A stretch of 64,000 nt of DNA from Escherichia coli (GTDB lineage Bacteria; Pseudomonadota; Gammaproteobacteria; Enterobacterales; Enterobacteriaceae), in the NCBI RefSeq assembly GCF_022846255.1, contig NZ_AP025682.1, one strand, 5' to 3'. The first letter of the stretch is position 1; each line of letters starts with the position of its first letter. A program made the position numbers. Below, piece by piece: positions 1 to 3,000 of the stretch.

Positions 1-3000
1 TCGCAGCAGAAAAGAATATTTTCCGAATCCGCATCCAGCAGACGCACGTGCCATTTCCCTTCAGGAAGCAATACACGTGCACCATCATTAAAGTCATAAA
101 AAATATTTTCAGGCCCTGCCTGCGTTGGCGTGTCAGGCGGAGAGATAAAAAATCTATTCTTCAGCGTTGACATATTTTTACCTTCAAAAATATATAAGCG
201 TTGAAAAGTACGATGAGTACGCTAAAAATATAACTAAAGTGTCTTTCTTATGATGAGTAACACCCATCGCACGGTTCTGATATTCTTCTGTAATAGCAGA
301 GATGAGTTCACATATGACATTCTCACGATGTCACACCTCGCGCATTCCATTACATTTACCCAACGACTTTAGTCGTTGCAGATGAAATGCACCCTGCATT
401 ATTTCCGGCTACGCGCAGGAGTTAGTTTACAGTTTACGTGCAGAAAGACTTATCAATTTCGGAAGTGTATCCGGTCAGTACGTAACGTTACAGCGCTTAC
501 AAAAACGTCCTGTTCATTATCCATGCAATATCATTCCGGTTTCTCAGACCGATTTTAAATATCGCCTTTTGTCGGTAGTAACACACATTGCTGTAATGTA
601 TCTGCATACGCTTTGCAATATCACTTACAGTTTCACCGCCAAGAAGTGCATTTATCACCTGTCGCTCATTAGCACTTAAACGCTGAAATCTATACCCACT
701 ACTTATATAGCGAGAAGGCACGGTCAGAATGCGCAGAAAAATATTTTTCAATTGATGAAAGCTTTGTGACGGAGAAATCCAGGTAAAAGGATATTTGATA
801 TTATTCTGCCCTCCCTGATGGCCAAATAAAATGCATGGAGTCCCTCTCAGTTCGTGGCGTTCAGAATAAAGGACTGACAGATTCCACAAAAACCACAAGG
901 CCTTCACAATCACTGATGACTCATGGCAGGTGAGATCTACCACAATGACACTCTGTTTCCCGGGGAGGTGTCTATCAGACAGAATATGCGACACAATCTG
1001 CTCCGGTGTTTCCACGGAATTAACCTGAACAGCATGTTGCCCGGCACTTTCCATCACTGCAAAAAGCCCGAGGCGGGTGTACTGACACTGACTCATCAAA
1101 AATATCTGTTTCATCCGTATTTTGTCAGCTCCTGAGGAGCCTGTTCATTCCGTTTTCTCGATACCATCCACTGACGTAGTTTCTGAAATTTTGTCTGTGG
1201 CCTGAGTGACTGCTTTGCTGCGGGGGCAACAGGTTCCAACTGAACATCCAGTTCTGCTCCTGAACTGGCCGGGATTTCCTGCGGATCCTGTATATCCAGG
1301 ATCCGAAGAGCGCGTCTTCGTCCCGTTGTCGGTTCGTTCTGTATGAAGCGCCTGCTGCGGATATGGTTTCGTCCCTCGTGCTCAATGTAATACAGAATAT
1401 CTTTTGCTGTTCTCTGGGTTATATGAAACTCCCGGCTGACCGCCTCAACTGTCAGTAACCTGCCGGTTCGCATCCCCCAGAAGGTCACGATGATATACAG
1501 TGGTCGAGCCTGCATGTCCTGAACACACTCAGGACAGAAAAAATGTCTCTTTATTCGTCTGCGTCTCTCAGGCATACCCGCCACCTGAATATCTCTCCGT
1601 CAGAAGTATGAATTAAGAAGCATTGACATCCCTCCCCCCAGTAATTACAACAAACATCTGTTGCCGCATGTGTCGGGTTATCAGTGCTGAGTAACGCGCA
1701 ATACAGGTGCACAAGAAGAGGATCTGTTGTTGTCAAAATGACCCATTTTGACAACAACAGATTAAAAAACTAGATTTTTGCTATTGTCTGGTTTTATTTT
1801 CTTAGCTGTGTGGCGTTTTTGGCTGTTCATACTATTAATGGAGTTTTGGAGAATTCAGAAAACTGACAGACATCAATGCCATATTGTTACAGAAGGGATT
1901 TGATACGGGAGTTTTATTGATTTAAATCAAACAATTTTTAATTAATTGTTGTTTGCATAACCTGTGTTTTTTAACATTTGTAACCTCAATACAGGCAGTT
2001 TACAGTTTGGGTCAAAAAGTTGCTTTTTCGCCCTTTTTGACGGCTTCCATAACCGTTCAAAGCGGGCCGAATTTGAAGCTGTATAAATCACCGTATGCCG
2101 GATATTCCGGTGTCCCAGGTAATCCTGAATCAGGCGTGTATCGATGCCGTTATCTGCCAACGCGTAACCACACCCATGTCTCAGCATATGTGGATGGACA
2201 GCAACAGCCAGCCCGGCATTTCTTCCTGCTTCAGCCAGCAAGTTATAAAAACGTTGACGGGTAAGCGGACGCCCTGATCTGGAAATAAATAGCCAGTCCC
2301 TCTCTTCTTCTGCTGCAGGCAATTTTATAGTTTCCCGGGCTTTGAGCCAGTTCCTGATACATTGTACTTCTTCAGTCAGTAAGGGATGCACGGTACTGAA
2401 GCCGTTTTTCAGGCGCCGAACGCACAGCTTTCGGGACTCGAGCTCAAGGTCAGCAAGACGTAACGAAAGCATTTCGCTGACCCTGAGTCCGTGGATAAAA
2501 GCAAGAAGAATCATGCAGGCATCACGTTCCGGGTGGTGCCCCTTCAGCACCGCCCGTAACAAAAGGCTGACTTCATGGTGAGTAAGAAATTTTCGGGAAG
2601 ACATTAATCGCTCCGGTCAGATGAAACAGAGCGCTCAAGAGTGACACGATGCCCCCATCAGGCTATGGCTAAACGTGCTAAAGTCAGGAAAGCAGAATAA
2701 AACTCCGATTGCTCTTAAGAACAGTCAACTGGCATGGACCCACAGGTATATCAAATGAATTTAATCCAGCAACTGGCGGGAATTATCGAAGGGAATCTGA
2801 ACAGTCCACTGTCAGTAAAAGTTCTTGCTGAACGTTCAGGCTATTCAGAACGCTGGTTGTACAAACTGTTTCAGGATGTAACCGGGATCAGTGTAGCGCA
2901 GTACATACGTCGCAGAAAACTAACACTTGCCGCTTTACTTTTGCGCCATACCAGTCGCCGGATAACAGACATATCACTAATGTATGAGTTCAGTTCGCCC

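What the first reader, a model, noticed from the sequence alone, without database searches (positions are those of the whole stretch)
497..1575. Translationally coupled CaiF/GrlA-like and LuxR-like regulator pair as the output of the putative switch
The 154-aa CaiF/GrlA-like ORF ends in an ATGA overlap with the 205-aa LuxR-type ORF, implying co-expression from the control region at 1576..1941. GrlA- and LuxR-type regulators at phase-variable loci typically control adhesins or virulence genes, and the first downstream gene begins at 173.
Basis: partly seen in the sequence, partly recalled or inferred. Interest (0 to 1): 0.5.

Follow-up and report, generated by a model that had tools for sequence, protein, structure and literature searches.

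The report
tibD-tibB regulators behind an invertible promoter
The two overlapping regulator genes are tibD and tibB, the first genes of the known E. coli TibA adhesin operon, and they lie just downstream of a real flip-flop DNA switch that is in its "off" orientation in this window.

Summary
A 154-aa CaiF/GrlA-family ORF (1111-1575, minus) overlaps a 205-aa LuxR-type ORF (497-1114, minus) by ATGA. The next gene starts at 173. These are tibD and tibB of the tibDBCA adhesin locus (95-97% protein identity to ETEC H10407), so the gene pair is already known. Reviews still list their function as undetermined.

The "putative switch" is real. A 262-bp segment (1746-2007) flanked by 7-bp inverted cores (1739-1745, 2008-2014) is inverted in H10407. 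It also occurs as an exact reverse complement between identical flanks in other E. coli assemblies. The cores, arm sequences and adjacent invertases (63.5% and 66.5% identical to IpuA and IpuB) match the ipuS switch of uropathogenic E. coli.

The window is in the long-recombinase orientation, which is OFF by homology to ipuS. A conserved CRP-like site and a -35/-10 pair inside the segment then point away from tibD.

H10407, the only strain in which tib has been studied, has its invertase truncated by IS600 and sits in the other orientation. I found no paper describing this switch.

What TibD and TibB regulate remains inferred. TibB models as an atypical NarL-type response regulator; TibD is a GrlA-like winged helix.

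The parts
1..173 (-). 5' end of tibC (autotransporter O-heptosyltransferase); it runs off the left edge of the window, and tibA lies beyond it
   Evidence: 98% DNA identity to H10407, where the CDS is annotated and starts at the equivalent position. Orthologues carry Pfam TibC_1st plus Glyco_transf_9 and are followed by an AIDA-type autotransporter.
174..496 (-). tibB-tibC spacer. Only the tibB-proximal block at about 423-467 (cacttccgaaattgataagtctttctgcacgtaaactgtaaacta) and the last ~45 nt before tibC are conserved across genera
   Evidence: Alignment of the spacer from 7 loci. The spacer is 323 bp in E. coli (sequence) and much shorter in Citrobacter. No sigma-70-like promoter was found on the minus strand here.
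424..435 (-). 12-mer AAACTGTAAACT, identical to the inner arm of the distal recombination site
   Evidence: Exactly two copies in the 64-kb window (424-435 and 1997-2008); 0.29 expected by chance, and 4 of 100 shuffles reach 2.
497..1114 (-). tibB: 205-aa LuxR/NarL-type regulator with an atypical receiver-like N-terminal domain
   Evidence: GerE Pfam E 2.3e-7. The N-terminus resembles RcsA in NCBIfam (E 1.1e-6). AF2 model pLDDT 92, pTM 0.89. Best PDB matches are StyR, RcsB, FixJ, NarL, EvgA and VpsT. 95% identical to H10407 TibB.
1111..1575 (-). tibD: 154-aa CaiF/GrlA-family winged-helix regulator; its stop overlaps the tibB start (ATGA at 1111-1114)
   Evidence: PF07180 E 5.3e-8. The only PDB relative by sequence is GrlA 4kt5_C (E 0.003). 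GrlA is also the best fold match of a weak model. 97% identical to H10407 TibD.
1576..1738 (-). tibD leader, between the proximal recombination site and the tibD start
   Evidence: Sequence. Conserved among the E. coli-type loci. In C. farmeri and Atlantibacter an extra BOF/OB-fold gene lies between the switch and tibD.
1722..1762 (.). Perfect 19+3+19 palindrome centred on the proximal core. It exists only in this (OFF) orientation. It is the recombinase half-site pair and, on the tib strand, a -26.3 kcal/mol hairpin
   Evidence: z = -5.7. pToe17-1 and C. farmeri extend the arms with different complementary bases: TT/AA in the window, AA/TT in pToe17-1, GG/CC in C. farmeri.
1739..1745 (.). Proximal 7-bp inverted-repeat core (TGACCCA on the + strand)
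   Evidence: Breakpoint of the inversion relative to H10407. Present in all lineages and in ipuS.
1746..2007 (.). 262-bp invertible interior of the switch
   Evidence: Inverted in H10407. An exact reverse complement (262/262) between identical flanks (590/590 and 236/236) is seen in the E. coli 06-00048 chromosome versus Logan contigs.
1916..1931 (+). CRP-like palindrome ATTGATTTAAATCAAA inside the switch
   Evidence: It is the only match with 3 or fewer mismatches to TGTGA-N6-TCACA between tibD and the distal core. Its TTGAT-N4-ATCA core is conserved in all tib lineages and in ipuS.
1949..1977 (+). Predicted switch promoter: -35 TTGTTT, 17-nt spacer, -10 TAACAT. The CRP-like centre lies 61.5 nt upstream of the inferred start (about 1984). 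In this orientation it faces into the invertase gene
   Evidence: The TTG and TANNAT positions are conserved across lineages. Coordinates were checked. No transcription data.
1748..1776 (+). Second promoter-like site, TTGACA-17-TAGATT (10 of 12 matches). Its -35 is part of the recombinase arm, and it also faces away from tibD here
   Evidence: The -10 is not conserved outside the E. coli-type loci.
2008..2014 (.). Distal 7-bp core (TGGGTCA on the + strand), inside the invertase ORF
1942..2604 (-). IpuA-like tyrosine invertase. It is 220 aa in this orientation and is predicted to be 200 aa (ending ...LFDPF) after inversion
   Evidence: NCBIfam tyrosine-type DNA invertase, E 4.8e-76, above the curated cut-off. 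63.5% identical to IpuA. The predicted 200-aa forms exist on record.
2734..3597 (+). AraC/Rob-type regulator between the two invertase genes; part of the conserved module
   Evidence: present in all lineages.
3594..4145 (-). IpuB-like second tyrosine invertase (183 aa)
   Evidence: 66.5% identical to IpuB; NCBIfam E 1.6e-62.

Best explanation
The two ORFs are tibD and tibB, the first two cistrons of the tibDBCA glycosylated-autotransporter adhesin operon.

They lie directly downstream of an ipuS-type invertible promoter element (cores at 1739-1745 and 2008-2014, 262-bp interior). The adjacent IpuA- and IpuB-like tyrosine invertases are the likely enzymes that flip it.

In the ON orientation (as in ETEC H10407), a CRP-site-associated sigma-70 promoter inside the element reads through the proximal core and the 163-nt leader into tibD. 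tibB is then translated by termination-reinitiation at the ATGA overlap, so the two proteins are made together with, or just ahead of, TibC and TibA.

In the orientation present in this window (OFF), the same promoter points into the 3' end of the invertase gene. The proximal junction becomes a perfect 19-bp hairpin that could block read-through from the invertase gene.

TibD (GrlA-like winged helix) and TibB (NarL/RcsB-fold regulator lacking most of the phospho-acceptor pocket) most likely act as DNA-binding transcription factors that broadcast the ON state. Possible targets are the conserved block in the tibB-tibC spacer, which would raise tibCA expression, and unlinked surface or motility genes.

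Shown here: gene identity, families, the conserved overlap, the reality and exact limits of the inversion, and homology to ipuS.

Inferred: which orientation is ON, the promoter position, the CRP dependence of that promoter, the coupling mechanism, and every statement about what TibD and TibB regulate.
For: Identity and synteny:
- 98% DNA identity to the H10407 tib locus, where tibC and tibA are annotated.
- The module invertase-AraC-invertase-switch-tibD-tibB-tibC-autotransporter recurs in Escherichia, Citrobacter and Atlantibacter.

Families.

The switch is real:
- Window 1739-2014 is inverted in H10407 while the flanks are colinear.
- In-silico inversion predicts a 200-aa invertase ending LFDPF in every lineage.
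- Those exact proteins exist in public assemblies of the E. coli and Citrobacter lineages.
- The 06-00048 chromosome and the Logan contigs have identical flanks and a 262/262 reverse-complement interior.

ON/OFF assignment:
- ipuS has the same 7-bp core and the same arm sequence.
- Its experimentally defined ON state removes 11 residues of IpuA and, per the Fig. 1 legend (the running text says K-L), leaves a K-to-F terminal change (PMC6083910). That is the ...FDPF product predicted here.
- The CRP-like site and the conserved -35/-10 face tibD only in the H10407 orientation.
- From my own knowledge (paper not held): Espert, Elsinghorst and Munson 2011 showed a CRP-dependent tibDB promoter upstream of tibD in H10407.

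Prevalence: the long (OFF) form dominates assemblies, 2659 versus 8 index blocks in E. coli and 95 versus 8 in Citrobacter.

Real genes: purifying selection on both.
Against: - There are no expression data of any kind. The promoter is a conserved-motif prediction, and a stronger consensus match (1748-1776) exists elsewhere in the element.
- No TibD or TibB binding site is known. The spacer block and the shared 12-mer are only suggestive.
- In the H10407 lineage, which makes TibA, TibD carries a rearranged wing. TibB shows 10 amino-acid changes, with dN/dS 2.76 against the window. This argues that the regulators may not be needed for tibCA expression once the switch is ON.
- Nonsense codons near the TibB C-terminus occur in pToe17-1 and in one Atlantibacter genome.
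- The ipuS study found no phenotype for the analogous regulator IpuR.
Confidence: 0.75

Rival explanations
1. TibD and TibB are not activators of tibCA. They are cross-talk regulators that act in trans on other loci, for example by repressing flagellar genes or other adhesins, whenever the adhesin operon is ON. tibCA would simply be transcribed by read-through from the switch promoter.
For: The locus is described as a tibDBCA operon. No promoter-like site was found in the tibB-tibC spacer. Locked-ON ipuS reduces motility, and IpuR showed no effect on upaE-dependent phenotypes. The H10407 regulators appear to be drifting although TibA is made. GrlA, RcsA/RcsB and other adhesin-linked regulators are known to repress flhDC (established knowledge, not tested here).
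Against: The block right after tibB is conserved across genera, which suggests a cis element serving tibCA. No target was tested.
Confidence: 0.3
2. TibD and/or TibB feed back on the switch itself. They would bind a recombination arm and bias or lock the orientation, giving the ON state memory.
For: The 12-mer AAACTGTAAACT is shared by the distal inner arm and the tibB-tibC spacer, and occurs nowhere else in 64 kb. Accessory regulators are known to modulate fim switching (established knowledge).
Against: The 12-mer match is of modest significance (4 of 100 shuffles). The arm is more simply a recombinase half-site, and it is also conserved in ipuS, which has no TibD. No binding data exist.
Confidence: 0.1
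3. The inversion is an old, fixed structural difference between lineages, and tibDB is expressed from a fixed promoter in the 1576-1738 leader. The pair would then not be a switch output.
For: Among 21 complete E. coli replicons, orientation correlates perfectly with lineage and with invertase truncation: 13 versus 7 chromosomes plus 1 plasmid.
Against: An exact inversion between 100%-identical flanks occurs within the 06-00048 lineage, and both forms occur in Citrobacter. Both cores carry the same complementary mutation in H10407. No promoter-like site was found in the leader on the minus strand.
Confidence: 0.03
4. The pair are decaying remnants with no current function.
For: Nonsense codons in TibB occur in two genomes. 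A truncated tibD remnant sits on plasmid pPKF8-91kb. H10407 shows drift.
Against: dN/dS is 0.17-0.53 across genera. Length, the overlap and dozens of invariant residues are kept at 41-57% identity. The window copies are intact.
Confidence: 0.05

Closest known systems
tibDBCA locus of ETEC H10407 (tibD, tibB, tibC, tibA)
   Same: Same genes in the same order. TibD is 97% and TibB 95% identical, and the tibC start is at the equivalent position.
   Different: H10407 has the 262-bp segment in the opposite orientation. Its IpuA-like invertase is truncated by IS600, and the AraC gene and second invertase are missing. Both cores are mutated to TGACCGA/TCGGTCA. Its TibD has a rearranged wing. The window carries the complete module in the other orientation.
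ipuS switch of uropathogenic E. coli CFT073 (ipuB-ipuA-ipuS-ipuR-upaE; Battaglioli et al. 2018, PMC6083910)
   Same: Homologous invertases (63.5% to IpuA, 66.5% to IpuB). The same 7-bp core and proximal arm; the interior is 261 versus 262 bp; the distal repeat lies inside the invertase ORF; inversion shortens the invertase to ...FDPF. A LuxR-type regulator followed by an autotransporter lies downstream.
   Different: tib has two regulators (CaiF/GrlA-type plus LuxR-type) rather than one. TibB gives no BLASTP hit to the annotated 118-aa IpuR ORF of strain N3. tib has an AraC-type gene between the invertases, a heptosyltransferase, and a long palindrome at the proximal site that ipuS lacks.
fimS (FimB/FimE) and hyxS-hyxR (FimX) switches of E. 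coli
   Same: Tyrosine-invertase-driven inversion of a promoter segment of about 300 bp with short inverted repeats. hyxS also drives a LuxR-type regulator.
   Different: Different repeats (9 and 16 bp) and different outputs. The tib invertases are closer to IpuA and IpuB than to FimB/FimE at the DNA level.
GrlA (LEE regulator; PDB 4KT5) and CaiF
   Same: TibD matches the CaiF_GrlA profile. GrlA is its only PDB relative by sequence (E 0.003) and its best fold match.
   Different: About 22% identity over about 85 residues. TibD has an extra conserved C-terminal helix (residues 129-139). No GrlR-like partner gene is adjacent; the neighbour is a LuxR-type protein instead.
RcsA / RcsB (NarL-FixJ class regulators)
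   Same: TibB has the RcsB/NarL two-domain fold. Its C-terminal HTH aligns to RcsB, and its first 50 residues resemble RcsA.
   Different: The scores are far below the NCBIfam cut-offs (28.6 versus 162 bits for RcsA). The receiver pocket is degenerate. The family is small (35 clusters) and is found only next to TibD.

Membership tests
tibD/tibB of the tibDBCA adhesin locus | Orthology to the H10407 genes and position upstream of tibC-tibA | tested here: met
   97% and 95% protein identity; 98% DNA identity through the tibC start; tibA is annotated next in H10407 and 06-00048.
CaiF/GrlA family (PF07180) | Significant match to the family profile | tested here: met
   E 5.3e-8, 33.4 bits, residues 14-101. 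All homologues carry the precomputed PF07180 hit except one fragment.
CaiF/GrlA family (PF07180) | Winged-helix DNA-binding fold as in GrlA | tested here: inconclusive
   The AF2 model is weak (pLDDT 55). Its core (residues 25-95) shows three helices plus a beta-hairpin. The best PDB match is GrlA 4kt5_C, but only at E 0.027.
CaiF/GrlA family (PF07180) | Acts as a transcriptional activator on a defined promoter | not testable with these tools
   No expression or binding data. Reviews state that the function is undetermined.
LuxR/FixJ (GerE) DNA-binding regulators | C-terminal four-helix LuxR-type HTH | tested here: met
   GerE E 2.3e-7, residues 145-197. The model has helices 148-199 at pLDDT above 94, and full-length NarL-class matches.
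Two-component response regulators (NarL class) | Receiver (beta-alpha)5 fold | tested here: met
   The model shows strands 2-7, 29-33, 54-60, 94-97 and 111-113 alternating with helices. It matches RcsB, FixJ, NarL and EvgA at E 3e-7 to 1e-5.
Two-component response regulators (NarL class) | Complete phospho-acceptor pocket (acidic pair after beta1, Asp after beta3, Thr/Ser after beta4, Lys after beta5) | tested here: not met
   Only D60 is present, and it is invariant. The other positions are S8-Q9, G98 and S114 (positions read from the alignment against the model's strands). There is no adjacent kinase gene. TibB should therefore be filed as an atypical or pseudo-receiver regulator.
Fim/Ipu-type invertible promoter switch | Adjacent FimB-family tyrosine invertase | tested here: met
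   NCBIfam tyrosine-type DNA invertase, 254.8 bits versus a cut-off of 221; 63.5% identical to IpuA.
Fim/Ipu-type invertible promoter switch | Short inverted repeats bounding a segment of about 300 bp | tested here: met
   The 7-bp cores TGACCCA/TGGGTCA lie 262 bp apart, and are conserved at 260-262 bp in all lineages.
Fim/Ipu-type invertible promoter switch | Both orientations occur in otherwise identical DNA | tested here: met
   Flanks 590/590 and 236/236 identical, with the interior 262/262 reverse complement. The predicted inverted-state proteins are on record.
Fim/Ipu-type invertible promoter switch | Promoter inside the element that drives the downstream genes in one orientation only | tested here: inconclusive
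   A conserved CRP-like site plus TTG-17-TANNAT lies inside the element and faces tibD only in the H10407 orientation. No transcript mapping is available here.
Fim/Ipu-type invertible promoter switch | The adjacent invertases catalyse the inversion | not testable with these tools
   Circumstantial only. All 13 genomes with a truncated invertase share one orientation.

The most novel reading that the evidence does not exclude
The tib adhesin system is natively a phase-variable circuit (two invertases, an AraC-type regulator, an invertible CRP-dependent promoter, and the TibD/TibB pair). Its only studied representative, ETEC H10407, is a degenerate locked-ON derivative.

In intact strains, TibD and TibB would work as a heteromeric GrlA-like/RcsA-like regulator made in fixed ratio through the ATGA coupling. 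They would bind the AAACTGTAAACT motif shared by the switch arm and the tibC upstream block. This would both boost tibCA expression and stabilise the ON orientation, giving a self-reinforcing memory switch.
Probability: 0.12. Interest if true: 0.65.

Novelty: new member of a known kind. Interest (0 to 1): 0.45.

Why it matters
TibA is a glycosylated adhesin/invasin of enterotoxigenic E. coli, and TibD and TibB have been called "putative regulators" without a defined role.

This analysis indicates that the locus is under fim/ipuS-type phase variation. It also indicates that the reference strain used for all tib work has lost its invertases and sits in one orientation, with signs of drift in both regulators.

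That offers a possible reason why the regulators' role has stayed obscure. It also points to intact strains (for example the 06-00048 lineage, and Citrobacter) in which ON/OFF control, CRP input and the TibD/TibB regulon can be tested directly.

It adds a further member to the family of E. coli invertible switches (fimS, hyxS, ipuS). Because Fim-family invertases cross-act on each other's switches, this could matter for adhesin heterogeneity and for vaccine-antigen expression.

Tried and rejected
1. Key papers could not be read. Espert et al. 2011 (PMC3067628) and Lindenthal & Elsinghorst (the 1999 paper under a PMC id recalled from memory, and the 2001 paper) are not held. The CRP-dependent tibDB promoter is therefore cited from memory only.
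2. Seven full-text searches were run, four of them aimed at a tib switch or phase variation. None found a description of a tib switch. This is absence in that library only.
3. TibB versus the annotated IpuR ORF of strain N3 gave no BLASTP hit at E below 1e-3, so orthology of the regulators with the ipu locus is not supported.
4. PADLOC models gave no hit for TibD, TibB or the AraC-like protein. It is not a defence system.
5. The Rfam scan of 1-4400 gave nothing above threshold. The only match was STnc230 at E 0.92, 26 bits versus a gathering score of 50.
6. The strongest consensus promoter match (1748-1776, TTGACA-17-TAGATT) was considered as the main promoter. I ranked it second because its -10 is not conserved outside E. 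coli-type loci and its -35 is part of the recombinase arm.
7. I considered that the long palindrome 1722-1762 is a conserved RNA terminator. Three lineages show complementary changes, but Citrobacter L008 and Atlantibacter keep only 12-bp arms and the U-tract is weak. I left it as a possible insulator and did not claim it.
8. The genomic context of a distant TibB homologue (P0082) was uninformative.
9. The TibD structure model was too weak (pLDDT 55) for a firm fold assignment.
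Full report
**1. What is in the sequence**

On the minus strand of the first 4.3 kb the window carries, in transcription order:
- an IpuB-like invertase gene (4145-3594);
- on the opposite strand, an AraC/Rob-type regulator gene (2734-3597);
- an IpuA-like invertase gene (2604-1942);
- a gap;
- a 154-aa ORF (1575-1111);
- a 205-aa ORF (1114-497);
- a 323-bp spacer;
- the start of another gene at 173.

The two ORFs overlap by ATGA (1114-1111). The 154-aa start at 1575 has AGGTGG 5 nt upstream, and RefSeq uses the same start in the closest genome. An in-frame GTG at 1584 is also possible.

**2. Identity**

Megablast against 5,426 complete E. coli genomes finds this stretch in 24 of them. 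One is ETEC H10407 (98% identity over 1-2425). There the genes downstream are annotated as the autotransporter heptosyltransferase and "autotransporter adhesin/invasin glycoprotein TibA".

The window ORFs are 97% (TibD) and 95% (TibB) identical to the H10407 proteins. They are therefore tibD and tibB of the tibDBCA locus.

The flanking core genes (the yhi, nik and zntA region) match all E. coli at no more than 97.8%. The window therefore comes from a somewhat divergent Escherichia lineage that is not in that collection.

**3. The proteins**

*TibD*
- It matches Pfam CaiF_GrlA (E 5.3e-8).
- Its only relative in the PDB by sequence is GrlA (4kt5_C, E 0.003).
- An AlphaFold model built from 13 homologues is weak (pLDDT 55). 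It shows three helices and a beta-hairpin over residues 25-95, plus a conserved C-terminal helix at 129-139.
- GrlA is again the top Foldseek hit, followed by generic winged-helix regulators.

*TibB*
- It matches GerE (E 2.3e-7). Its first 50 residues resemble RcsA (NCBIfam E 1.1e-6, far below the family cut-off).
- With a 55-sequence alignment, obtained from a profile search of 1.84 billion representatives, the model is confident (pLDDT 92, pTM 0.89).
- It matches full-length NarL-class response regulators: StyR, RcsB, FixJ, NarL, EvgA and VpsT (E 3e-7 to 1e-5).
- Reading the model's strands against the alignment, only the phospho-acceptor Asp (D60, invariant) survives. The acidic pair, the Thr/Ser and the Lys are replaced by S8-Q9, G98 and S114.
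- TibB is therefore an atypical, probably phosphorylation-independent, regulator.

*Both families*

Both families are small (44 and 35 clusters at 90% identity). They are confined to Escherichia, Salmonella, Citrobacter, Yersinia, Hafnia and Atlantibacter records.

**4. Are they real, coupled genes?**

- Across genera, dN/dS is 0.24-0.53 for tibD and 0.17-0.30 for tibB.
- The ATGA overlap is kept in every lineage, down to 57% (TibD) and 49% (TibB) identity.
- The nearest Shine-Dalgarno-like AGGAG lies 14 nt before the tibB ATG, which is too far for normal initiation. Termination-reinitiation coupling is therefore a reasonable inference. It is not shown.

**5. The switch is real**

BLAST of the window against H10407 shows 1-1743 and 2010-2425 colinear, but 1739-2014 inverted.

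The breakpoints are a 7-bp inverted repeat: TGACCCA at 1739-1745 and TGGGTCA at 2008-2014. The distal copy lies inside the invertase ORF. All lineages have the same cores 260-262 bp apart.

Inverting the interior in silico turns the variable 210-225-aa invertases into a uniform 200-aa protein ending ...LFDPF. I looked these predicted proteins up by exact sequence. Both the E. coli 06-00048-type form and the Citrobacter form exist in public assemblies (8 contigs each), next to intact tibD-tibB-tibC.

The 06-00048 chromosome and three Logan contigs have identical flanks (590/590 and 236/236) and an interior that is a 262/262 reverse complement. This excludes an ancient fixed rearrangement.

The long form is far more frequent in assemblies: 2659 versus 8 index blocks in E. 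coli and 95 versus 8 in Citrobacter.

**6. Relation to ipuS, and which state is ON**

The invertases are 63.5% and 66.5% identical to IpuA and IpuB.

The ipu locus of strain N3 has the same core, the same proximal arm (gttgtcaaaaTGGGTCAtttt) and a 261-bp interior.

Battaglioli et al. 2018 (PMC6083910) defined ipuS states with an ipuR-lacZ fusion. OFF gives full-length IpuA. ON removes 11 residues and changes the terminal residue (K-to-F per the Fig. 1 legend; the running text says K-L). They mapped the transcript start inside the part of the element that encodes the IpuA tail in the OFF state. The ON product is exactly the ...FDPF form predicted here.

By homology, the window (220-aa invertase) is OFF, and H10407 is ON.

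An alignment of the element from six tib lineages plus ipuS, all turned to the H10407 orientation, shows a conserved core of a palindrome. The window form is ATTGATTTAAATCAAA, at 1916-1931 (+). It is the only match with 3 or fewer mismatches to the CRP core motif in the control region.

This palindrome is followed by a conserved TTG, a 17-nt spacer and a conserved TANNAT. The window has TTGTTT at 1949-1954 and TAACAT at 1972-1977. The palindrome centre is 61.5 nt from the inferred start, which is class I CRP geometry. The start falls in the tail-coding part, as in ipuS.

From memory, Espert, Elsinghorst and Munson (J Bacteriol 2011) showed that CRP binds upstream of tibDBCA in H10407 and activates the tibDB promoter. 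I could not retrieve that paper.

In the window orientation this promoter points into the invertase gene, so it would make antisense RNA to that gene.

**7. The proximal junction**

In the window orientation only, the proximal site is a perfect 19+3+19 palindrome (1722-1762). On the tib strand it folds at -26.3 kcal/mol (z = -5.7). The simple scan flags it as terminator-like, although the U-tract is weak.

pToe17-1 and C. farmeri keep extended arms with different complementary bases. Citrobacter L008 and Atlantibacter keep only 12-bp arms.

I read it mainly as the pair of recombinase half-sites. It may additionally insulate tibD from invertase read-through in the OFF state.

**8. The reference strain is atypical**

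In H10407 and 12 other complete genomes:
- the IpuA-like gene is truncated (by IS600 in H10407) and, at least in H10407, the AraC and IpuB-like genes are missing;
- all 13 share the ON orientation, shown by single-piece matches to a synthetic inverted query.

The seven chromosomes with an intact invertase, and plasmid pToe17-1, are in the window orientation.

In H10407 both cores carry the same complementary change (TGACCGA/TCGGTCA).

TibD of H10407 carries a clustered change that perfects a long palindrome inside the gene. It rewrites the nearly invariant wing residues RRRALRILD to RDFLRILY.

TibB differs from the window protein by 10 residues, with dS only 0.008 (dN/dS 2.76).

This suggests relaxed constraint on the regulators once the switch is fixed ON. 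It also weakens the idea that they are needed for tibCA transcription.

**9. What the pair does**

Nothing here tests this. Three points bear on it:
- The module is invariably invertase-AraC-invertase-switch-tibD-tibB-tibC-autotransporter. The pair therefore belongs to the adhesin unit.
- The only part of the tibB-tibC spacer conserved across genera is a block right after tibB (about 423-467). It contains AAACTGTAAACT, a 12-mer found only once more in the window: as the inner arm of the distal recombination site (4 of 100 shuffles give two or more matches).
- The ipuS study found reduced motility in locked-ON cells and no phenotype for IpuR.

My ranking is:
1. The pair are ON-state transcription factors acting on tibCA and/or on unlinked surface and motility genes.
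2. They are purely trans-acting cross-talk regulators.
3. They feed back on the switch.

**10. Novelty**

The gene pair is known and annotated.

I did not find the invertible element of the tib locus described in 7.7 million PMC papers plus bioRxiv. Papers in subscription journals are not covered, so I cannot exclude prior description.

It is a new member of the fimS/hyxS/ipuS kind, with a two-regulator output.

Interest is moderate. It is not surprising mechanistically, but it reframes a long-studied ETEC adhesin locus and makes the TibD/TibB question testable in intact strains.

Noticed in passing
window 1263-1325 (tibD); L001 7279-7324: H10407 tibD carries a clustered multi-base change that converts an imperfect palindrome into a long perfect one, which looks like a template-switch mutation. 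It changes the conserved wing RRRALRILD to RDFLRILY. The window, 06-00048 and Citrobacter keep the ancestral form.
   Followed up: partly
window 424-435 and 1997-2008: The 12-mer AAACTGTAAACT occurs only twice in 64 kb. One copy is in the conserved block of the tibB-tibC spacer. The other is the inner arm of the distal recombination site. It may be a shared protein-binding site.
   Followed up: partly
window 497-1114 versus L001 6497-7114: tibB of the window versus H10407 shows 10 amino-acid differences with dS only 0.008 (dN/dS 2.76). All deeper comparisons give 0.17-0.30.
   Followed up: no
L012-L014 (C. farmeri) 7519-7902; L007 (Atlantibacter) 7446-7832: In these lineages an extra gene of about 127 aa, encoding a BOF/OB-fold (YgiW-like) protein, lies between the switch and tibD. 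It would be the first cistron of the switched operon there.
   Followed up: no
L005/L006 versus L007 (Atlantibacter hermannii): Two A. hermannii records lack 561 bp that span the invertase 3' end, the whole switch and the start of the BOF gene. In these records tibC is fused to an EAL-domain ORF and tibA is deleted. This is a decayed copy of the locus.
   Followed up: partly
L001 711-1812, L002 1-1143, L007 14847-15959: A helix-turn-helix/LuxR gene plus an EAL-domain (c-di-GMP phosphodiesterase-type) gene lies just beyond tibA in E. coli and in Atlantibacter. This hints at a c-di-GMP link to the locus. VpsT-like fold matches of TibB were also seen.
   Followed up: no
L027 (plasmid pPKF8-91kb) 5297-6594: A plasmid copy of the heptosyltransferase-autotransporter pair keeps tibB and only a frameshifted remnant of tibD. 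It has no switch or invertases, and a PapB/FocB-family regulator gene sits upstream instead.
   Followed up: no
L004 (pToe17-1) 6576-7115; L007 about 9064: TibB has a premature stop near its C-terminus in pToe17-1 (Y180*) and in one Atlantibacter genome (W198*). Each removes part of the last HTH helices.
   Followed up: no
window 4437-5590: A degenerate IS3-family element (orfA-like and a GTG-started orfB-like ORF) lies directly beyond the IpuB-like invertase gene. The equivalent copy in 06-00048 is annotated as a frameshifted pseudogene. The island lies next to yhiM.
   Followed up: no
window 1984 onward, + strand, versus invertase ORF 1942-2604 (minus): In the OFF orientation, the predicted switch promoter would transcribe antisense across the IpuA-like invertase gene. 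This could give orientation-dependent control of recombinase expression. The geometry is read from the sequence only.
   Followed up: no
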